NCBI GenBank assembly: GCA_016176525.1 | Contig: JACOWZ010000003.1 | Location: 385,000 to 448,999, forward strand | DNA length: 64,000 nt | Source: Candidatus Colwellbacteria bacterium | GTDB lineage: Bacteria; Patescibacteriota; Minisyncoccia; UBA6257; Colwellbacteraceae | Direction: 5' to 3' | Shown: positions 4,055-50,945 of the stretch, one piece after another | How positions within the stretch are numbered: the first letter of the stretch is position 1 | How the letters are laid out: the number at the start of each line of letters is the position of its first letter | Position numbers and translations under genes: made by a program | Notes under the pieces: model-generated | The model's database searches: none | What the model saw: only the letters and a program-made list of their open reading frames with translations | What the model was told of the DNA's origin: nothing

Positions 4055-4921
4055 CTATTGTATTTCGTAGCGTACCGTAACGTTAATTATTACTTCTTGC
4101 GAGCCCGGTTCTATAGTGGGCGCAACTTTGCCGGCTTCTTCTGCAACTGCTGCGTCAAAGGAGCGTATTGCAAAAGGCGAGTAATATCCTTCTTCTATTG
4201 ATATAATTTTACCTATCCTGAAACCCGCTGCTTTTGCAGTGGCCTCTGCCTGCACGCGAGCTTTTTCTATTGCCATAGCGCGAGCTTGGTTTTGCAACTC
4301 TGCTGGGTCGTCTATCGTAAAGTTTAGGCTGGATACTGTGTTTGCGCCGTTTTCAACCACTCCGCCCAATAATGCGCTAATTTTCTCAAAATCGCGCACT
4401 TTTACCGAAACAGTTTGGTTTATTTCGTAACCAACAATTTCTGCCGGTGGGCACACGGAGTCGTTAGTTATAACCGTGCTCTCTGCACCGCCAAATCCGC
4501 TAACGCCGCTACCCATGGGGCTAAGAATGCGCGGATAAGATGGTGTGCAGTATTGGTAACGCGGGCTTACGTTGTAGCTCTCGGTTTTTATATCTTCGCT
4601 CTTTACACCCTGTGATTTAACAAAGTCTATTGCTTTGTTTGCTTTTTCAGTGTTGGTTTGTTGAAGCTCTGCCAAATCCAAGCCGCCTTGAGTTGTTATG
4701 CTAAATGTAAATGTTGCAATGTCGGGCACTGCCACCGCTTTGCCTTCGCCAGATGCCGAAAAGCTTCTAAATGATCCCGGTTCAATTTGCTTTGCATACG
4801 AGTCAGCAAATTTTGTTGCCGCGAATGCAAACATTAATATTGCTAATATACCCACTACGCCTAGGGCGTTTTTTATATTGTTTGTCATATCGCTATTATA
4901 CCAAACTATAACGTTCACCAC
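4055..4921 (-). CDS. SIMPL/DUF541-family periplasmic protein (26 kDa periplasmic immunogenic protein-like)
   Basis: N-terminal TM/signal; KARVQAEATAKAAGFRIGKIISIEE-type SIMPL signature. Confidence 0.6.
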   Translation of the reverse strand: MVNVIVWYNSDMTNNIKNALGVVGILAILMFAFAATKFADSYAKQIEPGSFRSFSASGEGKAVAVPDIATFTFSITTQGGLDLAELQQTNTEKANKAIDFVKSQGVKSEDIKTESYNVSPRYQYCTPSYPRILSPMGSGVSGFGGAESTVITNDSVCPPAEIVGYEINQTVSVKVRDFEKISALLGGVVENGANTVSSLNFTIDDPAELQNQARAMAIEKARVQAEATAKAAGFRIGKIISIEEGYYSPFAIRSFDAAVAEEAGKVAPTIEPGSQEVIINVTVRYEIQ

Positions 4922-5029
4922 CCACCCATACTCTACAAGTCACCGGCGTAAAATTCTTACTGAATTTTCGCCTATATCTTACGCCTATGCGCTCCGAAGA
5001 TGACTTTACGAGCATGGCTGGGCGGCTCC
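4916..5029. repeat. ~114-bp intergenic element bounded by inverted repeats, copy i (most divergent)
   Basis: Shares the CACCGGCGTAAAATTC...TTTTCGCC...GCTCCGAAGATGACT core with copies at 25846 and 50831. Confidence 0.7.
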
Positions 5030-5037
5030 GCACTTAT

Positions 5038-5664
5038 TTAGAATAATGAAATTTGATTTTTAGCTTCTGTAGTTTGTTTTGCTTCGGGCGCGGTTTTTGT
5101 AAGCAATGATTCAAAGTTTTTTATAAGTTCCGGCAGTTTTTTAAAGTCTGTTTCTAAATCTTTTAAAACTCCAGTGGAGCGCAGTGCCGCTGCGGGGTGG
5201 TATAGCGGGAATATCAATTTATTGCTCAAGCGAAAAACCCTGCCGTGGTCTTTAGAGATTTTTGCATAAGGCAGAAAGTAGTTCATAGAAAATCTGCCCA
5301 ATGGCGCTATTATTGGCGCATTTAGAATTTCCAGTTCGCGCTTTAAGTATGGAGCGTAGACGGCAATCTCCTCCGGGAGTGGGTCGCGATTCTCTGGCGG
5401 GCGGTGTTTTACAATGTTTGTTATATAGACCGTTGCGCGGGGTATGCCGATATTTACTAGTATTTTGTCTAAAAGTTTGCCGGCACGGCCCACAAATGGT
5501 GTTTTAAGCTCGTTTTCAAAACGTCCCGGCGCTTCGCCGATGAATACAACTTTTGAGTTTGTGTCTCCAACGCCGAAAACAAGATTTATTCCCTGTGCAC
5601 GGAGCGGCAGGGAATTATCAGTATCCATTTCTTCTTTTAGCTTAAGAAGCTCGGCAGATTTCAC
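5038..5664 (-). CDS. Uracil-DNA glycosylase, family 4
   Basis: GEAPGRFENELKTPFVGRAGKLLDKIL motif typical of family 4 UDG. Confidence 0.85.
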   Translation of the reverse strand: MKSAELLKLKEEMDTDNSLPLRAQGINLVFGVGDTNSKVVFIGEAPGRFENELKTPFVGRAGKLLDKILVNIGIPRATVYITNIVKHRPPENRDPLPEEIAVYAPYLKRELEILNAPIIAPLGRFSMNYFLPYAKISKDHGRVFRLSNKLIFPLYHPAAALRSTGVLKDLETDFKKLPELIKNFESLLTKTAPEAKQTTEAKNQISLF

Positions 5665-6227
5665 AAAATTGTTACAGAAGTTATGCTTACTGGTTCTTTA
5701 GGCTTTGAAATTTCTGTTGGGTTAAGAGGGTTCGGCTGGGTTTCTGCTCCGGCAATTTTGTCCACGGTTTCTAGCCCCTCTATAACATGCCCGAATATTA
5801 CATAGTTTTTAGGCAGGGGTTGGTCGGCATGCATTATAAAAAATTGGCTGCCGTTTGTATTTGGTCCGCGGTTTGCCATTGCAACTGTGCCGCGGAGGTA
5901 TTCGCCCTTAAACGGCTCGTCGGCAAAAACGTAGCCCGGCCCACCTGTGCCGTCGCCATTAGGGTCGCCGCCCTGTATCATAAATCCCGATATTACCCTG
6001 TGAAATATTGTGCCGTTGTAAAAACCCTCCCCGGCGAGTTTGATAAAATTTTCTGCCGTTTTTGGAGTTTTATCAGCGTACAATTCTATTTGTATTGTCC
6101 CTGCAGTTGTTTCTAATTGAACTACTGGGTTTGTGATTCTTGTTGTTTGCATATATAAAAGCACCGCAAGCACCGCGCCAACAAACGATAGGGCAAATGC
6201 AGCAGCGATTACTTTTTTTGTGGACAT
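5661..6227 (-). CDS. Cyclophilin-type peptidyl-prolyl cis-trans isomerase with N-terminal membrane anchor
   Basis: FHRVISGFMIQGGDP signature; N-terminal hydrophobic segment; 4-nt overlap with the UDG gene. Confidence 0.9.
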   Translation of the reverse strand: MSTKKVIAAAFALSFVGAVLAVLLYMQTTRITNPVVQLETTAGTIQIELYADKTPKTAENFIKLAGEGFYNGTIFHRVISGFMIQGGDPNGDGTGGPGYVFADEPFKGEYLRGTVAMANRGPNTNGSQFFIMHADQPLPKNYVIFGHVIEGLETVDKIAGAETQPNPLNPTEISKPKEPVSITSVTIL

Positions 6228-6258
6228 AAACCTAATTATACAACATTATAATTAAGCT

Positions 6259-7233: not shown

Positions 7234-7281
7234 AAATCTCGCCTAGTGTTTTGGCGAGGTAGGGTTCTGTGTTTATTGTTG

Positions 7282-7542
7282 TCACGCTTCACCCATTAGC
7301 TTTTTTCTTTCCTTCAGCCATTCAATGTGGAGTTTTTTCTTTTCTTCCTCTTTGTTGATGGCTGTTCCTGTTTCTTCCGCTAGCCCTAAGTTTTTAATGA
7401 ACTTTGCGCACTCCGGGCAATCTCCACTGGAAGTCAGCGCAACTTCCTTGTGTCTTGGGCAGGTTGATATTTCTACCATTTTTTCTCGCGCCCGCGCTTT
7501 TTGTTCTAAGCTCTTTCTAGCACTTTGTAGTGTTAAAGTCAA
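7282..7542 (-). CDS. Small hypothetical protein with CPRH...CPEC zinc-ribbon-like motif
   Basis: 86 aa ORF; Lys/Glu-rich tail; no family recognised. Confidence 0.35.
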   Translation of the reverse strand: MTLTLQSARKSLEQKARAREKMVEISTCPRHKEVALTSSGDCPECAKFIKNLGLAEETGTAINKEEEKKKLHIEWLKERKKLMGEA

Positions 7543-7682
7543 GTTGTGTAAATAAATGTAAAAAGTTTTCCACAGTTTGTGTTTTGTTTACTTGAGCAAA
7601 TAAGATAAAATTATTTTGTAAAGTATTTTTCTCCTTAAAAAATAAAGGTCGAGAGATTTCTAGTGTAAAAAAATAAATTAAA

Positions 7683-7799
7683 ATGGCTAAAAAAAGAAGA
7701 GTAATGAAAAGAAAGACTGCGAAAAAGAGAGCGACCAAGAGAAAAACTACAAAGAGAAGAAAATCTAAGAAAAGAACGACGCGCAGGAGAAGAAGGTAA
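7683..7799 (+). CDS. 38-aa Lys/Arg-rich peptide (MAKKRRVMKRKTAKKRATKRKTTKRRKSKKRTTRRRRR)
   Basis: Not in the ORF track because it is under 60 aa. ATG...TAA, immediately followed by a strong rho-independent terminator. Does not match the L34/L36 consensus. Confidence 0.4.
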   Translation: MAKKRRVMKRKTAKKRATKRKTTKRRKSKKRTTRRRRR

Positions 7800-7815
7800 G
7801 ATAGAGTTGTAAAAA

Positions 7816-7844: not shown

Positions 7845-7882
7845 AGCACAAAAAAAATAGGCCAGGCGTGAAGCCTGAGCCT

Positions 7883-8194: not shown

Positions 8195-8223
8195 TCGTCA
8201 AACCATGTAAAATGTTTGCGTAT

Positions 8224-10858: not shown

Positions 10859-12217
10859 ATGACTAAGGATAGCCTAAATGCTGTTGTTGGAAAGACCCCC
10901 TGGTGGCGCAGGGCCGTTTTTTATGAACTCTATGTAGATAAATTTGCTGGCAATTTTAGAGGGCTAGCCGATAAAATCTCATACTTTAAAACTTTGGGTG
11001 TAGACGCTTTGCATATTTTGCCGCACTATCCGTCTCCAATGGTAGATGATGGATATGATGTTTCAGACTACATGAATATTCGTAAAAACTTGGGCACGAT
11101 GGACGATTTTGCTTTGTTTGTAAGCCAGGCCAAAGATGCAGGAATTAAAATAATGGTTGAGTTGCCTTTTAATCACACCTCGGTGGAGCATCCGTGGTTT
11201 TTAAAAAGCAAGGAATCCAAAACTAACCCCTATCGCGATTATTATTTGTGGAGCAATACAGGCAAAGAACTTGCCGCGGCGGCTAACGCCTTCCCCGAAA
11301 TCAAGCCGAGTAATTGGGTATTTGATAAAGAAGCCGGCGCGTATTTTTTCTCAACTTTTTATCCGACGCAACCGGATCTTAATTGGGGCAATCCAGAGGT
11401 TTTGAAGGAAATACTAAAAGTAATTGATTTTTGGGTGGCAGCGGGTGTTAATGCTTTTCGGCTTGATGCGGTGTCATACTTGGCGAAGAGCGAGGGTAAG
11501 ATAAGAAATCTGCAAGAATCCCACGATATAATTAGAAAAATCAGGGATCATGTTGAGCGTAAATATGGGGATATTGCACTTTTGGGAGAAGTTCATGACA
11601 CATTGGATGTTACGCGAACATATTTTGGCGATGGTTTGGAATGCCAGCTGGTTTATAATTTTCCTCTTGCGGAAGCAATAGCGGTAAAACTTGTTTTGGG
11701 CGAGGATGAACGACTAAAAAAAATTATAAGCGATCTGTCGGCGCCAGCCGGCTCCGCTTGGGTTTCTTTTATAAGAAATCATGACGAATTGTCTTTGTCT
11801 ACACTAGATATTGAAACGCGCGAGCGGCTTTCGAATGCAATAGACCCAAAAAGGCGGTTAAGGTTCCACGGCGGTGTTTCCGCCCGACTCGCGGATATGT
11901 GTTTAAAGTCAAAACTCGGCTTCGAGGAGGCGGTGCGCACGGCATTCGGCTTATTACTTAGCCTGCCGACAGCAGCAGTAATATATTATGGCGATGAAAT
12001 AAATATGAAAAATGCCGATGGCGATGCTTATAAAGACACACGCCGTTTTGTTCGTGCAGAATTTGACTGGGAGGAAGCCGAAAAGCAAATAAAAAATCCC
12101 GCTTCTTTATTTTCGTTTATCCGCGGTAAAATCACTGAGCGTAGGATTCGCGGTAGAGAAGTTCTTGATTCTCGAATATTTGGGGATAATACCCAGATAT
12201 CATTGCGCGGCGTTTAA
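10859..12217 (+). CDS. Glycoside hydrolase family 13 (alpha-amylase family) catalytic-domain protein
   Basis: GH13 regions: ELPFNHTS, GVNAFRLDAVSYL, GEVHD, FIRNHDELSL. Confidence 0.8.
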   Translation: MTKDSLNAVVGKTPWWRRAVFYELYVDKFAGNFRGLADKISYFKTLGVDALHILPHYPSPMVDDGYDVSDYMNIRKNLGTMDDFALFVSQAKDAGIKIMVELPFNHTSVEHPWFLKSKESKTNPYRDYYLWSNTGKELAAAANAFPEIKPSNWVFDKEAGAYFFSTFYPTQPDLNWGNPEVLKEILKVIDFWVAAGVNAFRLDAVSYLAKSEGKIRNLQESHDIIRKIRDHVERKYGDIALLGEVHDTLDVTRTYFGDGLECQLVYNFPLAEAIAVKLVLGEDERLKKIISDLSAPAGSAWVSFIRNHDELSLSTLDIETRERLSNAIDPKRRLRFHGGVSARLADMCLKSKLGFEEAVRTAFGLLLSLPTAAVIYYGDEINMKNADGDAYKDTRRFVRAEFDWEEAEKQIKNPASLFSFIRGKITERRIRGREVLDSRIFGDNTQISLRGV

Positions 12218-18409: not shown

Positions 18410-20482
18410 CTATTCTTCCAGTGTTCTAAAACTGTGAGTGCTGGATTGTGTTGTATTGCCAGACTCATCAGTTGATTCAACCATGAAGAAGTAGGTTGTG
18501 TCGGGGCTAAGCCCTGTAACATTCTTTGAGTGGGCTGTTACAAGGTTTGCATCTCCGACTGAAGCCGCGGTTTCTGTATCAATCGGGCTTGCAGTGGAGT
18601 AGAAGACTCGGCTAGTGGATGCTTCATCCGTAGCCCAGCCTACCGTAACCGAAGTAGAAGTCCTATTAGAAACGCCGATATTAGAAATTACCGGCCCTTC
18701 TGTGTCTGCAGGCTTTTCTACTGCAAGAGTGTCAAAAGACATCTCTTCGCTCATAGAAACGTTGCCTGCCTCATCTGCCGACTCTACTATAAAGAAGTAG
18801 GTTGTTTCTGCATCAAGTTCGCTCAAATCAATTGAGTGAGATGATACGAGCTCTGCGGAAGAAACACTGTCAGCAGTTTCCACGTCAATGTTTGCCTCGT
18901 TAGAGAAGTAGACCTTAGAGTTGGAGCTTTCATCCGTATCCCAAGTTATTGTTGCGCTAGACTCTGTTATATCAGAGGTAGCAACATTAGAGATTACGGG
19001 AGCTGTTTCGTCTAGTTCTTCTTCCTCTTCTACAGCAAGCGTGGCAAATGAGTTTTCATCAGATTTGCTGACATTGTCTGCATCATCCGCAGAAGACGCT
19101 ACAAAGAAGTAGGTAGTCTCGGCTGAGAGGTTGTTCAAGGTTATAGAGTGAGTTCGAGTGCTGTCAAAGGCCCTCGTTACAGAGAATGATGTTGCTTCGT
19201 TAACTGGGCTTGTAAGAGAGTAATCTACTCGGCTATTGGAGTCTTCATCGGTTGTCCAAGTTACCGTTGCACTGGAGTCCGTAATGTTTGTTACCTCTAC
19301 GTTGGAGATAACCGGAGCCTCGGTGTCGGCTGCCTCTATTGTAGTAAACGAACCCTCGTCGGAGGTGGCAGTGTTGCCGGCCTCATCGGTTGATTCAAAT
19401 ACAAAGAAGTACTTGGTTCCCGCTGCAAGATTCATTAGATTCTTGGAGTGCTCGGTTACCAAGTTAGAGTCGCCTACAGAAGCTGCAGTCTCGGTGTCAA
19501 CGGGGCTTACAGTTCCGAAGTAAACTCGGCTTGTAGAAGCCTCGTTTGTATCCCAGGCAATAGCTGCGCTAGACTCTGTAATATTCAAGGTTTCAATATT
19601 ACTGATTACGGGAGCAGCTGTATCAGCCTCATCTTCATCATCTCCATCCTCGTCCTCGTCTCCGTTTTCGTCCTCATCTTCATCTTCTTCCTCTACAGCT
19701 TCTGTAGTGAAGGAACCCTCGTCGGAGGTGGCAGTGTTGCCAGCTTCGTCAATTGATTCTACAATGAAGAAGTATTCAGTCTTAGCTGTTAGACCAGTTA
19801 GGTTCTTAGAGTGAGCTGCTGCCAGATTACTGTCGCCTACAGAGGCGGCGGTTTCTTTATCAACCGGAGTTGAGGTTCCGAAGTAAACTCGGCTGGTTGA
19901 CGCTTCATCCGTAGTCCAATTTACGGTAGCGCTAGACTCCGTTATGTCTGTGACTTCAATATCACTTATTATCGGAGCTGTTTCGTCAGCCGGTTCTTCG
20001 TCTTGTCCGGCTGCTAATGCTTGAAGTTGCAGAACAATACCCGGAGGCAAATCGTCGCCGCACTCTTCAAGAATTAAACTAGCCGAAACAAGGCCGCGTT
20101 TAGCAAGATTAAGCAGTATGCCTGGTGGTTGGTCGCAGAGATCAGAGTCTTTCTGCGCTTTGGCAAATCGTACTGAACTTGCCGATTCCATAGAGGCGGA
20201 ATTCTGAACCTCGGCGTCAATGCTCTCTGAATCATCGCCAGCAGATGTTACAGCAACGTCATTAACAGATTCTACGCTTGCATCGGTGGTGGTTTGTGCG
20301 ACCACATTAGAAGATTCGCCGTCTGTACTAAACACTAGCGTTGTTGCAATAGCCAAAGTCAGCGCTACAAGCGTGACAATAGCAACTGAAATTTCTCCTT
20401 TCTGGTGTGTCAGTTTTTTAGTCATTGTTTTTTTGGTTTTTAATACGGCACTTAGTAGGTGCCTTCGACCTTTATGCCCCAT
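18410..20482 (-). CDS. Membrane-anchored surface protein with five tandem fibronectin type III-like repeats and a poly-acidic linker
   Basis: N-terminal cytoplasmic tail plus TM; five ~100-aa repeats (APVISN..T.ITESSA...W.TDE.S.SRVYF....P....TA.SV...NL...HS..L..L...T.YFF.VES.DEAGN); EEEDEDEDENGDEDEDGDDEDE linker. Confidence 0.75.
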   Translation of the reverse strand: MGHKGRRHLLSAVLKTKKTMTKKLTHQKGEISVAIVTLVALTLAIATTLVFSTDGESSNVVAQTTTDASVESVNDVAVTSAGDDSESIDAEVQNSASMESASSVRFAKAQKDSDLCDQPPGILLNLAKRGLVSASLILEECGDDLPPGIVLQLQALAAGQDEEPADETAPIISDIEVTDITESSATVNWTTDEASTSRVYFGTSTPVDKETAASVGDSNLAAAHSKNLTGLTAKTEYFFIVESIDEAGNTATSDEGSFTTEAVEEEDEDEDENGDEDEDGDDEDEADTAAPVISNIETLNITESSAAIAWDTNEASTSRVYFGTVSPVDTETAASVGDSNLVTEHSKNLMNLAAGTKYFFVFESTDEAGNTATSDEGSFTTIEAADTEAPVISNVEVTNITDSSATVTWTTDEDSNSRVDYSLTSPVNEATSFSVTRAFDSTRTHSITLNNLSAETTYFFVASSADDADNVSKSDENSFATLAVEEEEELDETAPVISNVATSDITESSATITWDTDESSNSKVYFSNEANIDVETADSVSSAELVSSHSIDLSELDAETTYFFIVESADEAGNVSMSEEMSFDTLAVEKPADTEGPVISNIGVSNRTSTSVTVGWATDEASTSRVFYSTASPIDTETAASVGDANLVTAHSKNVTGLSPDTTYFFMVESTDESGNTTQSSTHSFRTLEE

Positions 20483-25842: not shown

Positions 25843-25845
25843 ACT

Positions 25846-25959
25846 CACCAAACCCACAGTATCTCGAGTCACTGGCGTAAAATTCTTGCTGAATTTTCGC
25901 CTTCTTCTCGCGCCGTCGCGCTCCGAAAATGACTCTCGACACAATGGGTTTGGTTCGCC
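25846..25959. repeat. ~114-bp intergenic element bounded by inverted repeats, copy ii
   Basis: Terminal inverted repeats ACCAAACCCA...TGGGTTTGGT; fills the whole gap between convergent genes. Confidence 0.8.
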
Positions 25960-25960: not shown

Positions 25961-27193
25961 TTAACCTAATCGGTCGTTTTTGATAAATATAAATAAGCCG
26001 CGAAGCCAGATTATAAGCGCCTTGTAGAGAGGCATAATAGAGGCAAGATATTTTAGCTCTACCAAGCCTTTTAATACCCATCCTAAAAATCCGCTTATTA
26101 TAAGCGGCCCTATTTTTGCAACTGCCCATTTGCCGCCCACAGGTATTATATAGGGGTAGCTTTTGGCGACATATTTTTTATGTGATGCAGTTTGTATGTC
26201 GCGGAGCACGTTTTCTGCCGCAACACGCGCTTGCTCAATCGCAGCAGGTGCCGTTTGCGGCGCTATTTGGCCCGTTTTTGGGTTTGTGGCACAGGTTATA
26301 TCGCCTATACCGAATATGCGGCCGTGGACAGTTAGGTCTGCGCTCTCCGGAATGCAAACCATTCCGCTCTCTACATCGGTTCTTTCTTTTGTTTTTCTAA
26401 ACGGTAGAGCTCGCAGTACGCTAGAGGGTTCTACTCCGCCAGTCCAGATAAGAACATCATAAGGGACGGTGTCTCCATCTTGGAGTAATAGATTTTTATT
26501 TTTTCCATCAACCGACACCACTGGGCTGTTTACGATTACTTTTATGCCAAGGCGCAGAAGCCTTTTGCTTATTTTTTCTATTACTCGTGGCTCAAAGTTG
26601 GATAGCACGGTTGGCCCTGCTTCTATTATTGTTATATTAGATTTTACTCCAAGCCAGTTTTTAAGTTCGCCTGCAAGCTCAACGCCGGTTGAGCCTCCTC
26701 CGATTACACAGATGTTTTCTCGCGGGGCTTCAGAGAGCACCGCATCTCTTATTTTTACAGCATCGGCGAATGTTTTAAATTCGTGGGCTGCTTCTTTTGC
26801 GCCTGGCACGCCGAAAAAGTTGGTTTGCGAACCTAGTGCCAATATTAAATAGTCGTACTTTATTGGATAGCCGTTTTTTAAGTGGATGTCGCCCGTACGC
26901 CTTGCTACGTCTAGCTCCGTAACCTCGTCGTTTATAAACTTTATAGGCAAGTTTTTAACCAGTTTTTCTATAGGGAATGTAACAATACGCTTGATTTTTG
27001 TATAATCCGCAGTTTCTTTATCAAGAGATGCTACTTCGTAGAGTGTGGGAGTATAGGTGTGGTACGCGTTTTTATCCACAAGTATAACCTCGTAATCATC
27101 TTGCAGATCGTATTTTTTAATGCCTTTACCAAGCGCTTTTGCAGCCGTTAGGCCGCCAAAACCCGCGCCTAAAATTACAATCTTTTTAACCAT
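25961..27193 (-). CDS. ndh: Type II NADH dehydrogenase / FAD-dependent pyridine nucleotide-disulfide oxidoreductase
   Basis: N-terminal Rossmann IVILGAGFGGLTAAKAL, second dinucleotide site ICVIGGGSTGVELAGEL, C-terminal TM tail. Confidence 0.85.
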   Translation of the reverse strand: MVKKIVILGAGFGGLTAAKALGKGIKKYDLQDDYEVILVDKNAYHTYTPTLYEVASLDKETADYTKIKRIVTFPIEKLVKNLPIKFINDEVTELDVARRTGDIHLKNGYPIKYDYLILALGSQTNFFGVPGAKEAAHEFKTFADAVKIRDAVLSEAPRENICVIGGGSTGVELAGELKNWLGVKSNITIIEAGPTVLSNFEPRVIEKISKRLLRLGIKVIVNSPVVSVDGKNKNLLLQDGDTVPYDVLIWTGGVEPSSVLRALPFRKTKERTDVESGMVCIPESADLTVHGRIFGIGDITCATNPKTGQIAPQTAPAAIEQARVAAENVLRDIQTASHKKYVAKSYPYIIPVGGKWAVAKIGPLIISGFLGWVLKGLVELKYLASIMPLYKALIIWLRGLFIFIKNDRLG

Positions 27194-28292: not shown

Positions 28293-28983
28293 AGTTGGTA
28301 TACAGAAAAAGTGGAGTAAATTTAAACACCGCGTAGGGTTGTTCAATCACGTGCCTTTTGTTGATTTTGCTTTTGCGGCGGGGAGTATGGCGATGGGCTC
28401 GGCGCGCGAGGATTCGGATTTTGACGTAATAGTTGGTGCACGGCACGGCAGAATTTTTACAGTGCGCTTTTTTTCGCATTTATTTTTCGCCTTGCGCAAA
28501 TGGAGAGCAACCCATAATTCAGATTCTCACTTAGGTGTTATGATTAATCATAACACCAGATCTAAAACTGCAGATAAAATATGTTTAAATCATTTTGTAA
28601 CGCCAAAAAGCTATAAATTCTCACCGCCATATAACGAATATTGGAATAAACTGTATTCAAACCTTGTGCCCTTACTCGGAAACGAGCCGGAGATAGAAAA
28701 GTTTATAGATATGAACGATTGGGTGCGGCCGGAGAGAAAATATATGCGCAGCCCTTTCCATGAGAATTTTAAGCCATCGCGCATACGAAAGTTTTTAGAG
28801 CGCGCACTCTCCGGGCCGTTTGGAGACTATATTGAAATAAAACTAAAAGCTTTCCAGATAAAAAGGATAAAGAAAAGCGCGAGTGATCCATCACACTATA
28901 AACCGCGCATAATTTATAGCGACGACGAGCTGGAGTTCCATCCGGATACCAAGAGAATTGAAGAAATACTTACTAAAAAGTAG
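28285..28983 (+). CDS. Nucleotidyltransferase-domain protein (Pol beta superfamily); overlaps the rmuC stop by 8 nt
   Basis: GSMAMGSAREDSDFDV (GS...DxD) NTase motif; contains the in-frame GVMINHNT palindrome insert. Confidence 0.6.
   Translation: MNKVGIQKKWSKFKHRVGLFNHVPFVDFAFAAGSMAMGSAREDSDFDVIVGARHGRIFTVRFFSHLFFALRKWRATHNSDSHLGVMINHNTRSKTADKICLNHFVTPKSYKFSPPYNEYWNKLYSNLVPLLGNEPEIEKFIDMNDWVRPERKYMRSPFHENFKPSRIRKFLERALSGPFGDYIEIKLKAFQIKRIKKSASDPSHYKPRIIYSDDELEFHPDTKRIEEILTKK
28534..28557. repeat. 24-bp palindrome copy C (GGTGTTATGATTAATCATAACACC), in-frame inside the NTase gene
   Basis: Read directly. Confidence 0.9.
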
Positions 28984-32759: not shown

Positions 32760-33104
32760 ATGGCAGTTGAGCAAGATGAAAAGTTTTTGGAGTTTGTAGT
32801 AAAGTCCATCGTTGACAATCCAGACGATGTAAAAATTGAAAGGAAAGTTGACGAAATGGGAGTGCTACTCACTCTAAAGGTGAACTCTAAGGATATGGGG
32901 CAGGTTGTTGGCCGCGAGGGCAACACAGCCAAGTCTATTCGCTCGCTTCTGCGCATAGTTGGCATTAAGCACAATGCCCGCGTTAATTTAAAGATTGACG
33001 AGCCGGATGGCGGCAGAGGTCCGAAACCAAGAGAAGAAAAGTCAGCGGACACCAACTTGGGTTCAGTCAATAAAGTGATTGAAGATATAAAAGATGTAGA
33101 ATAA
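32760..33104 (+). CDS. KH-domain RNA-binding protein (YlqC/UPF0109-like)
   Basis: GQVVGREGNTAKSIRSLL KH GXXG-type motif; positioned between rpsP and trmD as in Firmicutes. Confidence 0.8.
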   Translation: MAVEQDEKFLEFVVKSIVDNPDDVKIERKVDEMGVLLTLKVNSKDMGQVVGREGNTAKSIRSLLRIVGIKHNARVNLKIDEPDGGRGPKPREEKSADTNLGSVNKVIEDIKDVE

Positions 33105-33109
33105 AAAAA

Positions 33110-33136
33110 CCGCCCCCACCGGGGCGGTTTTTTTTA
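33110..33136 (+). terminator. Rho-independent terminator (CCGCCCC-CACC-GGGGCGG + T8)
   Basis: Read directly. Confidence 0.7.
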
Positions 33137-33151
33137 TACTATAATACTATT

Positions 33152-40832: not shown

Positions 40833-40870
40833 CGCAATATTTCAATATTTAAACATTTAAATATTTAAAA

Positions 40871-41191
40871 ATGAGCAAATTTTATAAAATAGTTGTTTTT
40901 GTTCCAGTGGATGCTGCAGATAAAGTGCGGGGTGCTATTACGCGAGCTGGTGGGGGTAGAATAGGTAATTATTCCGGTTGTAGTTTCTCCTCTAAGGGAA
41001 TTGGTCGTTTTAAGCCAGAGATAGGCGCAGATCCTGTTATTGGTAAAGTTGGTCAATCAGAGAAGGTGGAAGAAGAGAGAATTGAGGTTAGATGCGAGGA
41101 GGCAGTAGTTAAAGATATAATCACTGCGATTAAAAAATCTCATCCATATAATGAAGTTGCTTTAGATGTTTATGAATTAGTAGATTTTTAA
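40871..41191 (+). CDS. Small conserved protein, NIF3-insert/PII-like fold candidate (hypothetical)
   Basis: 106 aa; C-terminal HPYNEVALDVYEL motif resembling NIF3/CutA-type domains; weak. Confidence 0.4.
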   Translation: MSKFYKIVVFVPVDAADKVRGAITRAGGGRIGNYSGCSFSSKGIGRFKPEIGADPVIGKVGQSEKVEEERIEVRCEEAVVKDIITAIKKSHPYNEVALDVYELVDF

Positions 41192-41231
41192 TCTTCGATA
41201 TTGAAATATATAAATATTTAAAAATCTAAAC

Positions 41232-41684
41232 ATGGAGTTTAAAGATTTCTTAGTTAGGGCAAAGATTAATACCTATGCGACAGCTGGCGAAGGAGGCGAG
41301 AAAAGACTAAATGATGGCTCAAAAGAACTAATTTATAAAGAAGGTGATTTTATATATCGTGATAGATATTTCGGCGCACTGAGTTTTGTTGGTGAAGAAA
41401 TTGTATTTAAAAATAAGATACCGATTTGGGGTATGAATTACTGTGGCGCAACTATGGATCCGAGTATGACCAATGAAAAAGTTGCCGACTTTCTTAAAAG
41501 GGCCTTGAGAGCAGTTACAAGCGATATGCCATTTCGCGGTCCTTCAGAATTTAAAGAAGGAGATTGGTTCTACATAAATCAAGTTTCAGGCGATGTGAAT
41601 AGTTTCTCTGGTCACGAAGAGATTAAATATAAAGACCATGCTGTTTATAAGCTAGATTATCACGGTGGTATTATTAAAAAATAA
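41232..41684 (+). CDS. Hypothetical protein (DUF5680-like)
   Basis: YATAGEGGEKRLNDGSKELIY.EGDFIYRDRYFG pattern; no confident family. Confidence 0.4.
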   Translation: MEFKDFLVRAKINTYATAGEGGEKRLNDGSKELIYKEGDFIYRDRYFGALSFVGEEIVFKNKIPIWGMNYCGATMDPSMTNEKVADFLKRALRAVTSDMPFRGPSEFKEGDWFYINQVSGDVNSFSGHEEIKYKDHAVYKLDYHGGIIKK

Positions 41685-45230: not shown

Positions 45231-46329
45231 CATGGTTTAGTAAAATATTTATCTTTTTTTGGAAGTTTTCTTTGGAGAATTTCTTTGCGGTTTTTGAAAC
45301 GGTTCGGCGGTTAAATTTAAACCTAGTAAAAGCCTCAATCGCGGCTATTAGGGCCTCTGGGGACTGCTCATCAAAAAGTACTCCGTTTGTGCCGTCTTCA
45401 ATAATTTCTGTCTGGCCACCTTTGTTGTAGGCAATTACCGGCGTGCCGCAGGCAATAGACTCTGCCGCTGTTAGCCCAAAATCTTCCACTTGCGGAAAAA
45501 TTGTCGCGCGAGCGCCGCTTATAATTTTGCGCATTTCGTCATCGTGTTTCCCATTGCCGATCAACTTTATATTTGGCGATGTAATAATCTGTTCAACTTT
45601 TTCTCTATGCGGGCCGTCGCCCAAGATTATAAGCGGAGTATTAAGTTTGTTGAACGCTTTAACTATTAAGTCAAATTTCTTGTAGTGGAGTATGCGCCCG
45701 AAGGCAAGGAAGTATTCGTGTTTGGAAAACGGCAGCTTTTGTACAGGTTCCTCTTTGTCATAATAGAAAGTATTAGTGTCAACCGGCGGGTGAACAACAA
45801 AGACATCTCTGCCATAGAATTTGCGCACTTTATCTGCTGTAAATTCAGAGTTTGCCAGTAGCATATTAGGCTTTAACCCCATGCGCTCATCCCAGTTTTT
45901 AAGGTAAGAAATTATAGGGTGGGCGGCCTTGATAAGCGATTCATCAAAAAGAGTACCAAGATATTCTTGAGGTTCCCATGCGTAGCGAAGAGGCGAGTGG
46001 GTATAGCTTATATGGAACCCACGGCTGTATCTTATGCCTTTTGCCCAGCCTGCAGTGGCAGAAATTATAATATCGTATTTGTCGCCTAAATTTATGCTAT
46101 TTGCCGCTCCAGGCATTAGCGGTACAAAAAAACGGTGGTTTTTGTGCACCAGAGAGTTGTTTAAAAAGCTGGTTTTTATTGTTTTGCCGGCAAAGTGGCC
46201 GTTTTGGGAGCCTGGCTGGTGGAAGAGGGTATAGATTGGCGCTTCAGGGAACATCTCGGAGAGTGCTACAAGCACACGCTCCGCTCCGCCGAATTGATTT
46301 AGATAGTCGTGGACTAATGCTACACGCAT
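45190..46329 (-). CDS. Glycosyltransferase family 4 (GT-B fold)
   Basis: MRVALVHDYLNQFGGAERV N-terminus; EDFGLTAAESIACGTPVIA C-terminal sugar-donor motif. Confidence 0.85.
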   Translation of the reverse strand: MRVALVHDYLNQFGGAERVLVALSEMFPEAPIYTLFHQPGSQNGHFAGKTIKTSFLNNSLVHKNHRFFVPLMPGAANSINLGDKYDIIISATAGWAKGIRYSRGFHISYTHSPLRYAWEPQEYLGTLFDESLIKAAHPIISYLKNWDERMGLKPNMLLANSEFTADKVRKFYGRDVFVVHPPVDTNTFYYDKEEPVQKLPFSKHEYFLAFGRILHYKKFDLIVKAFNKLNTPLIILGDGPHREKVEQIITSPNIKLIGNGKHDDEMRKIISGARATIFPQVEDFGLTAAESIACGTPVIAYNKGGQTEIIEDGTNGVLFDEQSPEALIAAIEAFTRFKFNRRTVSKTAKKFSKENFQKKINILLNHANSFSTRSSLHAV

Positions 46330-46950: not shown

Positions 46951-48998
46951 AAAAACAACCGATAAATAACGTAAGGTATGTAGTAAAAGATGTTTATCAT
47001 CCGCGGGAGCGCGGGCGTAAATTGCGCAAATCCACAAAAAGCTCCGGATATTTTTCGCGCGCCGGTTGGGTGCCTAATAAATTTAATATAAAACCGCGGC
47101 GCCTGCCATTTGGAGTGAGGAGAGTTGCAGCCTTTGGGGCACTCGCCATATTTTTGGCTGTGTTTGCTTATGGAGGTTATCTCTGGAGCTATAAAGACGA
47201 TGGGATGCGTTCTATTTCTAATATCTATGAGAACTTTAAGTCGGCTGCAGAAAATATGGTGCTCTTGAACACTGATGCAGCGCGGGAATTTTTAGAAAAC
47301 ATAGAAATTGAAGTTAAAGGCATTGATGGCAGAACAAAACTCTTGAACGCGGCGCCTGTTTTAAGCGAAGTTCCACGCGCAGTCGGCAATATTGCGGAGC
47401 TCACTACTCTTATGAATTTACTGAATTCCGATGTTGAAAGTTTAAAGACCAATGGCTTCAATATGCTTTTTAGCGAAACCGGCCAAGGAATAACGAGTAT
47501 TTTAAAGAATACTCAAGCAAATATTGTTAAAATAGAAAATCTCGTAAGAGAGCTTAAAAACGCTGCCTCGAAGTTTGGGCTTGCCTCTACAACCATAGCC
47601 GGCGATTATTTAGCGCTTGATGTTAGCCTTACTAGGGGCTCTGATTTCATTAACGGCATCTTAAATCTTTTGGATTCTGGCGAGGATAAGAGATTGATTG
47701 TATTTTTTGAAAACCCTTCGGAGATTAGGCCCGGTGGCGGGTTTTTAGGCAGTTATGCAGAATTAGTGCTCGGTGGCGGCAGAGTAAAGCAGATAAATGT
47801 AAACGATGTTTATTATCCTGTGCGGTTTTCCGATTTTAAAATTGTGCCGCCTAAGCAGTTGCAAGCTATAGTGGGCAGTTGGAACACACAGGATGCGAAT
47901 TGGTTTTTTGATTTTGCAATGTCTGCCGAAAAAACCCTTGATTTTTTGGAAGCCTCGGATATTTACGAGGGTAAACATATGGCAGGCGCAGTCGCAATAA
48001 ATGTAAAAGTCATAGAAGATATATTGCCGCTTATCGGGGAAATAGAGGTGCCAGAATATGGGCTTACACTAACTTCTAAAAACTTTTTGCGCGAGGTACA
48101 AGAAGAGGTTGAGGTAGGTAGAGATAAGAAGCCCGGCCAGAACCCCAAAAAGATTTTAAATATTATAACGCCAATTTTAATGGAGCGGCTCTCAAACTTA
48201 GATGATAACGACAAATTACAGCTTGCCCAAATTTTTGCAAAGCGCGCTATAAACAAAGATATAAAGTTTTATTTCCGCGACAAAACCCTACAAGATTTCG
48301 CAGAAGAATATCTTGTTGCCGGCAGGGTGTTTAAAATACCCACAGGGTTTAGTGGAGATTACTTAGCTGTAGTTAATGCCAACGTTGCGGGAGGGAAAAC
48401 CGATGTTTTTGTGCGCCAGAGTATTGATTTAACTTCACATATAGATAGTGCTGGTGCAGTTGTAAACAAGCTCTCTATTGAACGTGCACATGAGGGCTAT
48501 GGTGAGAGAGAATGGTGGTATAGGGCGACCAACCAGAATTACATAAAAGTATTCGCGCCCACCGGCGCCAAGCTAGAGAGTTTGAGCGGCAACACTTCTA
48601 AAAATGTAACTCCCTTGGTAGACTATAGCATCGCGGATTATAAGGTTGATGAGGATTTGTCTTATGTGGAAGATACTAGAAGGTTCTTAACAGAGTTTGA
48701 AACATCTGAGTTTAAGGAGCTTGGAAAAACTTCTTGGGGAACATGGTTTAGCGTACAGGCAGGGGCAGAGCGCACACTTGAATTGCAATATGTTAACCCT
48801 AAGCGCGTGCGCGCTTATGATGGGGCAAAATATATATTTGTGCTAGACAAGCAATCTGGAGTTGAGTCTGAATTTAAGTATTCAATTGCTACACCGGAGG
48901 GTTTTGTGTGGGCAGAGTCCGGCACAAGTATATTCGAATATTCTACAAGAGAGATCCCCGCGCGGCTTACAATAGAATTAACTCTAAGAGAAGAATAA
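46947..48998 (+). CDS. Large membrane-anchored extracytoplasmic protein, DUF4012-like
   Basis: N-terminal TM; conserved ENPSEIRPGGGFLGSYAEL motif; follows the sugar transferase with 4-nt overlap. Confidence 0.55.
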   Translation: MKKQPINNVRYVVKDVYHPRERGRKLRKSTKSSGYFSRAGWVPNKFNIKPRRLPFGVRRVAAFGALAIFLAVFAYGGYLWSYKDDGMRSISNIYENFKSAAENMVLLNTDAAREFLENIEIEVKGIDGRTKLLNAAPVLSEVPRAVGNIAELTTLMNLLNSDVESLKTNGFNMLFSETGQGITSILKNTQANIVKIENLVRELKNAASKFGLASTTIAGDYLALDVSLTRGSDFINGILNLLDSGEDKRLIVFFENPSEIRPGGGFLGSYAELVLGGGRVKQINVNDVYYPVRFSDFKIVPPKQLQAIVGSWNTQDANWFFDFAMSAEKTLDFLEASDIYEGKHMAGAVAINVKVIEDILPLIGEIEVPEYGLTLTSKNFLREVQEEVEVGRDKKPGQNPKKILNIITPILMERLSNLDDNDKLQLAQIFAKRAINKDIKFYFRDKTLQDFAEEYLVAGRVFKIPTGFSGDYLAVVNANVAGGKTDVFVRQSIDLTSHIDSAGAVVNKLSIERAHEGYGEREWWYRATNQNYIKVFAPTGAKLESLSGNTSKNVTPLVDYSIADYKVDEDLSYVEDTRRFLTEFETSEFKELGKTSWGTWFSVQAGAERTLELQYVNPKRVRAYDGAKYIFVLDKQSGVESEFKYSIATPEGFVWAESGTSIFEYSTREIPARLTIELTLREE

Positions 48999-49016
48999 GC
49001 TTTAATTCACATTGCA

Positions 49017-49040
49017 GGTGTTATGATCAATCATAACACC
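49017..49040. repeat. 24-bp palindrome copy D (GGTGTTATGATCAATCATAACACC), 28 bp upstream of lepA
   Basis: Read directly. Confidence 0.9.
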
Positions 49041-49068
49041 ACTGTATCAGCACATCATTTATGAATAT

Positions 49069-50820
49069 ATGGAGATAAGAAATTTTGTAATCATAGCCCA
49101 TGTTGACCATGGGAAGAGTACGCTTGCCGATAGGCTTTTGGAGGCGACCCACACCGTTTCAGCGCATAAGATGAAAGCGCAGTATTTAGATGCGCTGGAG
49201 CTTGAGCGCGAGCGTGGGATAACCATAAAAATGGCACCGGTAAGAATGAAATATGGCGAATATATTTTGAATTTAATTGATACTCCTGGGCACAGCGACT
49301 TTAGTTATGAAGTTTCGCGCTCTTTGGGTGCGGTTGAGGGTGCGGTGCTACTGGTCGATATTACACAAGGCGCGCAGGCTCAAACCCTTGCAAATTTAGA
49401 CTCTGCCCGGCGCGCAGGCTTAAAAATAATAGGCGCGATAAATAAAATTGATTTAAACCCGGCGGGTGCGGATACTGCTTCCGAGGAACTCGCCTCGCTT
49501 TTGGGCTGTAAAAAAGAAGAAATTCATCGTGTTTCAGGCAAAACCGGCGAGGGTGTGGAAGGCCTTTTACAAGATATTGCGCGTAGAGTTCCTGGGCCTA
49601 AAATCGGGGGTGAGGAAAAATCTGCGCTTATTTTTAGCTCTACTTATAATAACCATAAAGGTGTTATTGCGTATGTTCGGGTTTTCGGCGGCAAGTTTAA
49701 GGCGGGTGAAAATGTGAAGCTTTTGGGAGTTAACGAGTCTTTTAAGATAAAAGAAGTTGGCTACTTTACGCCAGAATTTAAACCAGCCGACGCATTAGAG
49801 AACGGTGAGATAGGGTATATTGCAACTGGAATAAAAGATCCCGATATTATCAAAATAGGTGACACTGTTGGTTCAGATGGCGGGACGCCTCTGTCTGGTT
49901 TTAAAATTCCCCAGCCGGTTGTCTTTGTATCTATCTATCCAGACGAGAGTGATGACTATGACGATTTGAAGTTTGCTTTTGGCAAGTTACGGCTTGGTGA
50001 TTCTTCTTTAAGTTTTGCGCCGGATTTTAACGAAGTATTGGGGCGAGGCTTTAAATGCGGCTTTTTGGGCAAACTGCATATGGAAATAACAATACAAAGA
50101 TTAGAACGTGAGTTTGGCTTAAAAACTGTAAACAGTTTTCCGTCGGTTGCATATTTGGTTAAAACAAAAGATAAGGGGGAGTTTATTGCCGAGACTCCGC
50201 AAGATTTTCCTGCAGACTATTTAGAGGCTAAAGAGCCGATGGCGAATTTAGAGGTTTTGATCCCTGGGGAATATCTAGGCGCGTTTCTGGGGCTCAAAAA
50301 TGAGTTTAAGTTGGAGAATATTACAACCGACAATTACTTGCATAAAATAAAAGTGCGCGCGGCTCTTCCGCTCTCCGAGCTTATTGCGGATTTTGACGAC
50401 AGGTTAAAATCTATATCTTCTGGGTTTGCATCTTTTAGCTACGAGATAACTGATTTTCGCAGTGCAGACTTAAGAAAGTTAGATGTGCTTGTCGCCGGTG
50501 AACCTTTGGCGGGGCTCTCCAGAATTGTGCACAAAGAAGATGTTGAATCGGTTGGCCGCAATCTTGTTGTAAGGCTAAAAGACCTTTTACCGAAGGTGCA
50601 GTTTACGCAGGCCTTGCAGGCAATTGTGGGTGGCAAAATTATAGCGCGCGAAACTATACCGGCTCTACAAAAACGGCTTGGTTATTTTGGCAAAACCGGA
50701 GGAGACAGAACCCGCAAAATGAAACTCTGGAAGAAACAAAAAGAGGGTAAGGCGCGGCTAAAGGAGAGGGGGAGGGTGAGTGTACCCGCCGAGGCATTTA
50801 AGGAGCTTTTGAAAAAGTAA
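49069..50820 (+). CDS. lepA: Elongation factor 4 (LepA)
   Basis: G1 AHVDHGKSTLADRLL, DTPGH, NKIDL motifs; LepA C-terminal domain. Confidence 0.9.
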   Translation: MEIRNFVIIAHVDHGKSTLADRLLEATHTVSAHKMKAQYLDALELERERGITIKMAPVRMKYGEYILNLIDTPGHSDFSYEVSRSLGAVEGAVLLVDITQGAQAQTLANLDSARRAGLKIIGAINKIDLNPAGADTASEELASLLGCKKEEIHRVSGKTGEGVEGLLQDIARRVPGPKIGGEEKSALIFSSTYNNHKGVIAYVRVFGGKFKAGENVKLLGVNESFKIKEVGYFTPEFKPADALENGEIGYIATGIKDPDIIKIGDTVGSDGGTPLSGFKIPQPVVFVSIYPDESDDYDDLKFAFGKLRLGDSSLSFAPDFNEVLGRGFKCGFLGKLHMEITIQRLEREFGLKTVNSFPSVAYLVKTKDKGEFIAETPQDFPADYLEAKEPMANLEVLIPGEYLGAFLGLKNEFKLENITTDNYLHKIKVRAALPLSELIADFDDRLKSISSGFASFSYEITDFRSADLRKLDVLVAGEPLAGLSRIVHKEDVESVGRNLVVRLKDLLPKVQFTQALQAIVGGKIIARETIPALQKRLGYFGKTGGDRTRKMKLWKKQKEGKARLKERGRVSVPAEAFKELLKK

Positions 50821-50830
50821 CCCTAGCCTT

Positions 50831-50945
50831 CACCAAACCCACAGTATCTCGAGTCACCGGCGTAAAATTCCCGACTGTTTTTTCGCCTTTTTCTCGCCTC
50901 GTCAGGCTCCGAAGATGACTCTCGACACAATGGGTTTGGTTCGCC
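50831..50945. repeat. ~115-bp intergenic element bounded by inverted repeats, copy iii
   Basis: Near-identical to copy ii over ~105 of 115 positions; terminal IRs ACCAAACCCA/TGGGTTTGGT. Confidence 0.8.

What the first reader, a model, noticed from the sequence alone, without database searches (positions are those of the whole stretch)
4916..50945. Novel ~115-bp intergenic element with terminal inverted repeats, three copies
Copies at 4916-5029, 25846-25959 and 50831-50945 share a conserved core: CACCAAACCCACAGTATCTCGAGTCACCGGCGTAAAATTC...TTTTCGCC...CTCGC...GCTCCGAAGATGACTCTCGACACAATGGGTTTGGTTCGCC. The ends are perfect 10-bp inverted repeats (ACCAAACCCA / TGGGTTTGGT) plus sub-terminal IRs (GAGTCA / TGACTC), so each copy can fold into a long stem-loop. 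All three sit immediately downstream of stop codons (UDG, DUF5667-like gene, lepA) and fill the intergenic gap. Copy i is diverged at both ends but keeps complementarity between its arms. A MITE-like repeat or a conserved structured RNA (3' UTR element, atypical terminator, small ncRNA) are both possible. It has no T-run, so it is not a canonical intrinsic terminator.
Basis: seen in the sequence. Interest (0 to 1): 0.55.

Follow-up and report, generated by a model that had tools for sequence, protein, structure and literature searches.

The report
Capped long-hairpin element of CPR bacteria
The three repeats are real. They belong to a rare, undescribed family of long hairpins in tiny-genome (CPR) bacteria, with a conserved three-way-junction cap and a freely varying stem, which most likely act as a folded RNA of unknown role rather than as a jumping-gene remnant.

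Summary
There are three copies, all in one orientation, and exhaustive covariance-model scans of the window find no others.

The source is a Candidatus Colwellbacteria (Patescibacteria) chromosome with ordinary housekeeping genes and no transposase or reverse transcriptase.

Pattern and model searches found nine further copies in four other Paceibacteria genomes. Together they show an unexpected anatomy:
- A ~60-nt apical core is conserved. It has a 3-bp helix P2', an internal loop, hairpin P2, and hairpin P3 with an invariant A-tract and a bulged A. A U.G pair closes the long stem.
- The long outer stem (26-45 bp) differs completely from copy to copy but always pairs. 27 of 36 pairs covary.

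Other evidence:
- Wobble pairs fall on one strand (13 G.U to 1 A.C), which is the window's minus strand.
- Between two species the core is far more conserved than synonymous sites.
- There is no Rfam match, no terminal repeat shared across the family, no family-wide target-site duplication and no U-tract.
- Related genomes show empty and decayed sites, and one orthologous pair has the core inverted.

Best reading: a new structured RNA-type element whose cap binds a partner and whose stem is a generic double-stranded handle. Its function is unknown and transcription is unproven. The MITE reading is not supported. Interest is moderate.

The parts
4915..5031 (-). Copy i, whole element. The outer stem P1 spans 4917-5026 in two blocks of 8 bp each, then 7 bp next to the core. 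It has its own arm sequence, with three G.U pairs in the arms plus the conserved closing U.G.
   Evidence: covariance-model E=1e-20
4941..5002 (-). Copy i conserved core (CAUCUUCGGAGC...CGCCGGUG). P2 hairpin at 4981-4992, P3 hairpin with bulged A at 4945-4972.
   Evidence: alignments A3 and A4; pair counts
25845..25959 (-). Copy ii, whole element. P1 arms at 25847-25871 and 25930-25954. The tails GGCGA (5') and GA (3') are shared with copy iii.
   Evidence: E=3e-23
25870..25931 (-). Copy ii conserved core. P2 at 25910-25921 (GCGC-GACG-GCGC), P3 at 25874-25901.
50830..50945 (-). Copy iii, whole element. P1 arms at 50832-50856 and 50916-50940. Arms and tails are 100% identical to copy ii.
   Evidence: E=2e-20
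50855..50917 (-). Copy iii conserved core. P2 at 50896-50907 (GCCU-GACG-AGGC, two compensatory pairs relative to copy ii), P3 at 50859-50887 with a different loop.

Best explanation
The three copies belong to a small, undescribed family of structured elements. It has been seen so far in five Paceibacteria (CPR) genomes.

Each copy is one long hairpin on the window's minus strand. The outer helix is 26-45 bp, and only its pairing is conserved, not its sequence. It is closed by a U.G pair and capped by a conserved ~60-nt three-way junction. The junction carries two arms. One arm is a 3-bp helix (P2'), a purine-rich internal loop (GGA/GA) and a 4-bp hairpin (P2). The other arm is an 11-bp hairpin (P3) with an invariant GGCG-AAAA/UUUU-A-CGCC stem and a bulged A.

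I read it as an RNA-level element. Where it is transcribed, the minus-strand RNA folds. In most loci transcription would be read-through from the gene whose stop codon it abuts. The cap would be a sequence-specific docking site for a partner, most plausibly a protein. The long perfect helix would be a generic double-stranded handle, the kind of substrate RNase III cuts and 3' exonucleases stall on. The element would therefore mark or process a transcript boundary, or yield a small stable capped RNA.

New copies arise rarely, by duplication of the whole hairpin (copies ii and iii). Copies can decay or be lost, and the cap can flip by recombination between the arms.

Shown here: the fold, its covariation, the strand asymmetry, purifying selection, presence/absence, and the lack of transposon hallmarks. 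Inferred: transcription, the protein partner, RNase III processing, and any effect on neighbouring genes.
For: 1. Structure. With 12 sequences and a four-helix structure, 94.7% of cells pair and 27 of 36 pairs change on both sides. None of 500 shuffles reaches this, and all slid controls give at most 54% paired (9-sequence version). Covariation extends to the 3-bp and 4-bp side helices and the lower part of P3 (L071 and the L064 gyrA copy). This is typical of a folded single strand rather than a DNA palindrome.

2. Strand. Transition-type mismatches in the stems are 13 G.U to 1 A.C on one strand (p=0.002). The closing U.G and the bulged A are kept in all intact copies (C-G in the gyrA copy). 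The minus strand is 13-20 kcal/mol more stable in the window.

3. Selection. Between ELA106 and Ki1-bin-1343, synonymous-site identity is 78% (hisS) and 59% (recG). The cores are 57/57 and 52/57 identical, with all five changes in P2. The arms are 93% and 86% identical with compensated changes.

4. Not a known RNA. No Rfam match at gathering or E<=10 thresholds, apart from generic long-hairpin matches to miRNA precursors.

5. Position. In 6 of 9 independent loci the folding strand starts 0-10 nt after the stop codon of a same-strand gene: UDG, Pyr_redox_2, SIMPL, TrxB-like, response regulator and gyrA.

6. Stem length. The stems are long enough to be RNase III substrates (established knowledge: about 20 bp or more of dsRNA).
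Against: There is no expression data.

No consistent promoter lies upstream of the copies (and reading the flanks by eye).

Orientation relative to neighbours is not conserved:
- Copy iii is antisense to both flanking genes.
- L030 is inverted relative to its ortholog L023.
- At the pth|lepB site the element lies between two outward-facing -10 boxes, which look like leaderless promoters, so read-through cannot explain transcription there.

G.T is also the most tolerated mismatch in single-stranded DNA, so the strand bias does not strictly separate RNA from ssDNA.

In ELA106 all four cores are identical, including loops that vary elsewhere. This could be gene conversion rather than selection.

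Only five genomes are known. The alignment used for pair counts was fitted to the model.
Confidence: 0.5

Rival explanations
1. Selfish non-autonomous mobile DNA (MITE, foldback or Correia-like). The hairpin is a by-product of terminal inverted repeats. Copies spread with the help of a transposase encoded elsewhere in the genome.
For: - Copies ii and iii are whole-unit duplicates at unrelated loci, with 52/52 identical arm and tail bases.
- An empty site exists in a lepA relative that keeps the same gene order.
- At the pth|lepB site the element is present, decayed or absent among relatives.
- All three window copies are flanked by TC on both sides.
- Location is intergenic, in either orientation.
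Against: - The arms differ completely between copies in ELA106, and their outermost ends are not conserved across the family; only the few arm bases next to the core are shared within a genome.
- There is no target-site duplication outside the window genome.
- Only 3 copies occur in 64 kb and at least 4 per genome.
- No transposase lies in the window.
- Orthologous copies keep the core far better than synonymous sites, which neutral decay of dead copies would not give.
- Copies ii and iii differ at 13 of 63 core positions but at 0 of 52 arm positions (Fisher p=2e-4). This is the opposite of a recent transposition.
Confidence: 0.2
2. A single-stranded-DNA element. The folded strand would be recognised as DNA during replication, repair or DNA uptake, for example as a recombination site, a priming site or an HUH-enzyme site, in the way attC sites or IS200/IS605 ends are.
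For: - The strand asymmetry of mismatches fits ssDNA as well as RNA.
- P3 is a hairpin with an extrahelical base, as in IS608 ends and attC sites (established knowledge).
- All three window copies share one orientation, and so do the three ELA106 contig-1 copies.
- The pattern strand mostly coincides with the G-rich strand.
- Orientation is independent of neighbouring genes.
Against: - By GC skew and gene orientation, the better-folding strand is not the lagging-strand template.
- The two L064 copies have opposite orientation within 7 kb.
- No integrase, HUH or Rep gene lies nearby.
- Conserved 3-4-bp side helices and junction purines are unusual for DNA sites.
- No R-box or cleavage motif is shared.
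Confidence: 0.12
3. A plain atypical transcription terminator or mRNA 3'-end stabiliser. The conserved cap would have no specific role.
For: The element abuts stop codons. It fills the gap between convergent genes at three loci (copy ii, L011, L024). The hairpins are very stable.
Against: - There is no U-tract.
- The genome has canonical terminators, for example 33097-33141.
- A generic hairpin would not keep a 60-nt non-palindromic cap under purifying selection with covariation.
- One site lies between divergent promoters.
Confidence: 0.1
4. An invertible DNA switch. The cap is flipped between the arms to change local expression.
For: The core is inverted between the orthologous loci L023 and L030 while the flanks are collinear. 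The inner arm bases are conserved within a genome.
Against: - No promoter consensus lies in the core (and by eye).
- Orientation at the pth|lepB site is the same in four lineages.
- No recombinase lies nearby in the window.
- The arms vary between loci.
- A single inversion over about 15% sequence divergence is expected from recombination between long inverted repeats alone.
Confidence: 0.05

Closest known systems
Correia elements (Neisseria) and ERIC/IRU repeats (enterobacteria)
   Same: Intergenic imperfect palindromes of 100-150 bp, found in either orientation next to genes. When transcribed they fold into long hairpins. For Correia elements these hairpins are cut by RNase III and alter mRNA stability (own knowledge of the literature, not tested here).
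   Different: In those families the whole sequence, including the ends, is conserved between copies. Correia elements have 26-bp terminal repeats and a TA duplication, and copy numbers run from tens to hundreds. Here the ends are the variable part and the apex is conserved. Copy number is 3-4 or more per genome, and the apex shows RNA-type covariation.
Bacterial Y RNAs (YrlA type)
   Same: The 5' and 3' ends pair into a long stem that carries a multi-helix cap. There are a few paralogous copies per genome. They act as protein-binding non-coding RNAs.
   Different: In Y RNAs the stem holds the conserved Ro-binding site, the cap mimics tRNA with a T-loop, and the genes sit next to rsr. Here the stem is variable and no T-loop is present. 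No Rfam Y-RNA hit was found, and no TROVE-domain gene was found among the ~40 window ORFs scanned against Pfam.
Integron attC sites
   Same: Hairpins of 60-140 nt in which structure rather than sequence is conserved. They have extrahelical bases, a strand-specific fold and a variable terminal structure.
   Different: attC sites conserve the base of the stem (the R boxes) and vary at the apex. They lie in cassette arrays next to an integrase. Here the conservation pattern is reversed, the copies are dispersed singly among housekeeping genes, and no R boxes are present.
Rfam miRNA-precursor models (mir-2513 and others)
   Same: Weak model matches (46.9 bits against a gathering score of 89) because of the long, near-perfect hairpin shape.
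   Different: The matches are below threshold, occur on both strands, come from eukaryotic families, and have no sequence match in the cap. The resemblance is one of shape only.

Membership tests
MITE (non-autonomous DNA transposon) | Terminal inverted repeats conserved among copies of the family | tested here: not met
   The arms are identical only in copies ii and iii. Copy i and all ELA106, Ki1, L064 and L071 copies have unrelated arm sequences.
MITE (non-autonomous DNA transposon) | Target-site duplication flanking each copy | tested here: inconclusive
   The three window copies are flanked by TC...TC. This could equally be part of the element. No direct repeat flanks the ELA106, Ki1 or L064 copies.
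MITE (non-autonomous DNA transposon) | A cognate transposase in the genome whose ends match | not testable with these tools
   No transposase is present among the ~40 window ORFs scanned against Pfam. The whole genomes could not be read.
REP/BIME | A 20-40-nt palindrome with a conserved 5' GTAG-type tetranucleotide, many copies, and a RAYT gene | tested here: not met
   The unit is 115-150 nt, has no shared terminal tetranucleotide, and occurs 3 times in 64 kb.
Intrinsic (rho-independent) terminator | A short GC-rich hairpin followed by a U-tract | tested here: not met
   No terminator-like site was found at any copy. The sequences after the 3' arm lack T runs.
Any Rfam 15 family (including hammerhead, twister-sister, Y RNA, 6S, SRP) | Covariance-model score at or above the gathering threshold | tested here: not met
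   Only tRNAs pass the threshold in the window. Nothing relevant appears at E<=10 on copy ii or on L024.
Integron attC | R''/R' boxes (RYYYAAC / GTTRRRY) at the base of the stem, within a cassette array next to intI | tested here: not met
   The stem bases are unrelated between copies. The copies are dispersed among housekeeping genes, and no integrase was found.
Retron non-coding RNA | Located immediately upstream of a reverse-transcriptase gene; outer a1/a2 repeats enclosing msr and a long msd hairpin | tested here: not met
   No reverse transcriptase lies next to any copy. The inner hairpins are only 4 and 11 bp.
Inverton (invertible promoter switch) | Inverted repeats flanking a promoter, both orientations present in a population, and a dedicated recombinase | tested here: inconclusive
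   One between-species inversion was seen (L023 against L030). No promoter consensus lies in the core. Within-population orientation could not be tested.

The most novel reading that the evidence does not exclude
The variable stems may be specificity cassettes rather than mere spacers. On this reading, each element is a precursor hairpin. Its conserved cap is the loading or processing signal for a dedicated protein, and its double-stranded stem is cut into small guide RNAs aimed at a host, phage or own-genome target. That would be an endogenous long-hairpin guide system in episymbiotic CPR bacteria.

What fits:
- Copies ii and iii keep 52/52 identical arm and tail bases while their cores differ at 13 positions.
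- The arms are more conserved than synonymous sites between species.
- The stems (26-45 bp) exceed what a structural handle needs.

What does not yet fit: no target match was found in the window. Only copy ii, as a whole element, was compared with the phage collection, and it found nothing; the arms were never searched against phage, plasmid or host sequences.
Probability: 0.07. Interest if true: 0.85.

Novelty: new variant of a known kind. Interest (0 to 1): 0.5.

Why it matters
CPR/Patescibacteria have very small genomes with little spare DNA, and almost nothing is known about their non-coding RNAs. An element kept at 3-4 or more copies, with a cap under strong purifying selection and a very long double-stranded stem, points to an RNA-protein system or an RNA-processing signal specific to this lineage.

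It also reverses the usual rule for bacterial palindromic repeats, in which the ends are conserved and the middle is free. Repeat finders and MITE finders would therefore misclassify it.

On the practical side, the element breaks short-read assemblies of these genomes: every Logan contig that reached it ended inside it.

If the stems prove to be specificity determinants, the finding would be much more important.

Tried and rejected
- **Rfam.** Gathering-threshold and E-value searches found no family.
- **Collection scans.** Scans with core patterns gave these results. Of the 47 genome-contig loci, 41 were chance matches. Two JGI metagenome scans found nothing real; the three P3-only hits lie in coding sequence. 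Two IMG/VR scans found nothing real. BLAST against phages found nothing.
- **Other inverted repeats in the window** with about 58-nt spacing (1869-1982, 11645-11737, 45515-45636) have no core and are chance.
- **Hammerhead reading of the junction.** The 7/8/1-nt linkers and the GA next to P2 look similar, but G5, A6 and A14 are replaced and the 'cleavage' base is G. There is also no Rfam hit. Rejected.
- **Classical k-turn next to P2.** Only one bulged base is present instead of three, and the tandem G.A is not kept in L071, win_i or L030. Not claimed.
- **Internal promoter.** TAAAAT on the plus strand within P3 has no -35 partner, and the P3 helix covaries. Not supported.
- **Arm targets.** Searching the arms against the window gave only matches of 11 nt or less.
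- **Walking out of the window.** The NCBI contig is not in the look-up index, and the Logan contigs end inside the element.
- **Link to SIMPL genes.** Two SIMPL homologues from other Paceibacteria have no element nearby.
- **Literature.** Searches for a described CPR hairpin RNA or MITE found nothing relevant.


Full report
**1. Observation**

The three stretches are present as described. They align at 81-83% mean column identity.

Copies ii and iii carry 25-nt imperfect inverted arms 58-59 nt apart. Copy i has different arms that still pair.

Each copy folds far better than shuffled sequence, with z-scores of -4.8 to -7.7. The minus strand folds much better than the plus strand: -57.6, -57.2 and -51.6 kcal/mol against -37.4, -43.2 and -38.7. 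This is because several stem positions are G.U on the minus strand and A.C on the plus strand.

A covariance model scored against every position of the window with filters off finds these three copies (E about 1e-20 to 1e-23). The next-best hit is E=0.05.

**2. Setting**

The lepA protein is 100% identical to an NCBI MAG protein named Candidatus Colwellbacteria bacterium, on a contig of 644,793 bp. The next relatives are only 69% identical.

The window encodes ordinary CPR housekeeping genes: ribonucleotide reductase, obg, SMC, SecA, TrmD, S2, type IV pilus genes and others. About 40 of the larger ORFs were scanned against Pfam. None is a transposase, reverse transcriptase, integrase or TROVE protein.

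Flanking genes of each copy:
- Copy i lies between UDG and SIMPL/DUF541, both on the minus strand.
- Copy ii fills the gap between the convergent stops of a DUF5667 gene (plus strand) and a Pyr_redox_2 gene (minus strand).
- Copy iii lies between lepA and a DivIC-like gene, both on the plus strand.

**3. Relatives and anatomy**

A degenerate core pattern scanned over one genome per GTDB species gave 47 loci, of which six are real. Four are in 'MAG: bacterium isolate ELA106' and two in 'uncultured bacterium Ki1-1-6m_bin-1343'.

In these copies the ~57-nt core is nearly identical. The flanking arms are 33-45 bp, almost perfectly complementary, and unrelated in sequence from copy to copy.

A HisRS search showed that ELA106 belongs to Paceibacteria and has a graded series of relatives. 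Fetching their contigs and scanning with the model gave three further members:
- An intact copy directly after the gyrA stop, with 43-bp perfect arms (L064:2595-2686).
- An intact copy at the pth|lepB spacer in L071, with many compensated changes in the core.
- A degenerate copy at the same spacer in L064-L069.

**4. Structure**

On 12 sequences, a four-helix structure is 94.7% paired. 27 of 36 pairs show changes on both sides. None of 500 shuffles reaches any of the five measures, and sliding the partners by 1-3 columns drops pairing to 35-54% (the 9-sequence version is).

The helices are:
- P1, the long stem, closed by an almost invariant U.G.
- P2', a 3-bp helix. It was revealed by UU/AA changing to CG/CG in the gyrA copy and in L071.
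- A purine-rich internal loop (GGA/GA).
- P2, a 4-bp hairpin whose sequence and loop vary.
- P3, with 11 bp, an invariant A-tract, a bulged A and a variable loop.

Caveat: alignment A4 was fitted to the model. However, A3 is an independent MAFFT alignment and gives the same result for P1, P2 and P3.

**5. Strand and selection**

Transition-type mismatches in the stems number 13 G.U against 1 A.C on the strand carrying the core in the 'CAUCUUCGGAGC' sense (p=0.002). Replication-skew mutation pressure would bias in the opposite direction.

ELA106 and Ki1 differ by 11-16% over the flanks. At synonymous third positions they are 78% (hisS) and 59% (recG) identical. Their two orthologous elements nevertheless have cores that are 57/57 and 52/57 identical, with all five changes in P2. 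Their arms are 93% and 86% identical with compensated substitutions.

So both the cap sequence and the stem pairing are maintained. The degenerate L064 copy shows that pairing decays when it is not maintained.

**6. Dynamics**

Copies ii and iii are whole-unit duplicates at unrelated loci. Oddly, they show 0/52 differences in arms and tails but 13/63 in the core, including two compensatory pairs in P2 (Fisher p=2e-4).

A lepA relative that keeps the DUF4012-lepA-DivIC order has only 24 nt between lepA and DivIC. That is an empty site for copy iii.

At the pth|lepB spacer:

| Genome or locus | State of the element |
|---|---|
| ELA106, Ki1, L071 | present |
| L064-L069 | decayed |
| L070 and the P0248 contig | absent |
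| L072 | replaced by an AT-rich long hairpin with no core |

L023 and L030 are orthologous loci (response regulator, then RecG), but the core is inverted relative to the flanks. This is what recombination between long inverted arms would produce.

**7. What it is not**

- There is no Rfam family match.
- There is no U-tract, and no consistent promoter or terminator site flanks the copies.
- Across the family there are no conserved terminal repeats and no target-site duplication. Only a TC...TC flank occurs, and only in the window genome.
- No copies were found in IMG/VR, in the JGI metagenomes scanned, or in GenBank phages.

**8. Interpretation**

The combination of evidence points to a molecule that folds as a single strand and is maintained by selection. 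The evidence is covariation down to 3-4-bp helices, conserved junction purines, a conserved U.G and bulged A, one-strand wobble bias, and purifying selection at orthologous sites. The most likely such molecule is an RNA made from the window's minus strand (confidence about 0.5).

In six of nine independent loci this strand begins 0-10 nt after the stop codon of a same-strand gene. Read-through transcription would therefore produce it there.

I propose that the cap is a specific docking site and that the long helix is a generic dsRNA handle, serving as an RNase III substrate or an exonuclease barrier. This part is inference.

Several points argue against this reading:
- There is no expression evidence.
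- Orientation relative to the neighbouring genes is not conserved.
- At the pth|lepB site the element lies between two outward-facing -10 boxes (TATACT, 6 nt before the start codons). This looks like a leaderless-mRNA arrangement, as also seen for SIMPL and DivIC in the window.
- ssDNA could show the same mismatch bias.

The rivals are a selfish foldback or MITE-like DNA (0.2), an ssDNA site (0.12), a plain terminator or stabiliser (0.1) and an invertible switch (0.05).

**9. Comparison, novelty and score**

The nearest known things are Correia/ERIC-type intergenic palindromes and stem-plus-cap RNAs such as bacterial Y RNAs. The element fails the defining features of each (see the membership table).

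It is best called a new variant of the known kind 'dispersed intergenic hairpin element / structured non-coding RNA'. Its conservation pattern is reversed relative to that kind.

Interest is moderate (0.5). The family is real, selected and undescribed, and it occurs in a poorly understood lineage. However, it is rare (five genomes so far), its function is unknown, and new bacterial RNA motifs are not in themselves surprising.

Noticed in passing
window 3139-3164, 3754-3779, 28532-28557, 49015-49040: Four copies of a 24-bp near-perfect palindrome, GGTGTTATGAT-NN-ATCATAACACC, with unrelated flanks. One overlaps the start of the HhH-GPD glycosylase gene, one lies just upstream of lepA, and two fall inside called ORFs. 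It looks like a transcription-factor operator or a short palindromic repeat. Each hairpin element has one of these within 1.1-2.6 kb, which may be chance.
   Followed up: partly
window 4889-4903 (minus strand) and 50972-50989 (plus strand); L036 897-912: A TATAAT or TATACT box sits 6 nt before the ATG of SIMPL and of DivIC. The same holds for pth in the ELA106 clade, and lepB there has a comparable TATACT box further upstream of its start. This suggests leaderless mRNAs are common in these Paceibacteria.
   Followed up: no
L048, L053-L056 (Logan contigs from SRR12113430, SRR12113383 and SRR12113384): Every short-read contig carrying a gene next to an element ends 31-39 nt after that gene's stop codon, which is inside the element. 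The hairpin or repeat breaks de Bruijn assemblies of this organism.
   Followed up: yes
window 4055-4921 and 25961-27193; L011 3872-4600; L024 2960-3889: In both clades one element copy lies next to a SIMPL/DUF541 (YggE-like) gene and one lies just after a Pyr_redox_2 oxidoreductase gene. The SIMPL positions are not equivalent (upstream in one clade, downstream in the other). The proteins do not look orthologous: they differ in length, and the ELA106 SIMPL is not among the top homologues, though they were not compared directly. Two other SIMPL loci lack the element. This may be coincidence or a weak link to oxidative-stress or DNA-repair genes; UDG, RmuC and RecG are also neighbours.
   Followed up: partly
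L072 9113-9288: At the pth|lepB spacer of a more distant relative (82% HisRS identity) there is a long imperfect AT-rich hairpin of about 40 bp with a small loop and no conserved core. It could be a remnant of the arms after loss of the core, or an independent palindrome at the same site.
   Followed up: no
window 40833-40880 and 41194-41233: Short AT-rich repeats with an 8-nt period (ATATTTAAA-like) occur in the two spacers after secA and after the next small gene (family D4).
   Followed up: no
window 18410-20482 (minus strand): A 690-aa protein with four fibronectin-III / purple-acid-phosphatase-N-type repeats. It is seen as 300-nt DNA repeats at 60-71% identity.
   Followed up: no
L036 1067-1100; L046, L064, L070 and L071 equivalents: A conserved small palindrome, TTGACAA...TTGTCAA, lies between the element and the lepB -10 box in all relatives, whether or not the element is present. 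It is probably an operator or promoter element of lepB.
   Followed up: no
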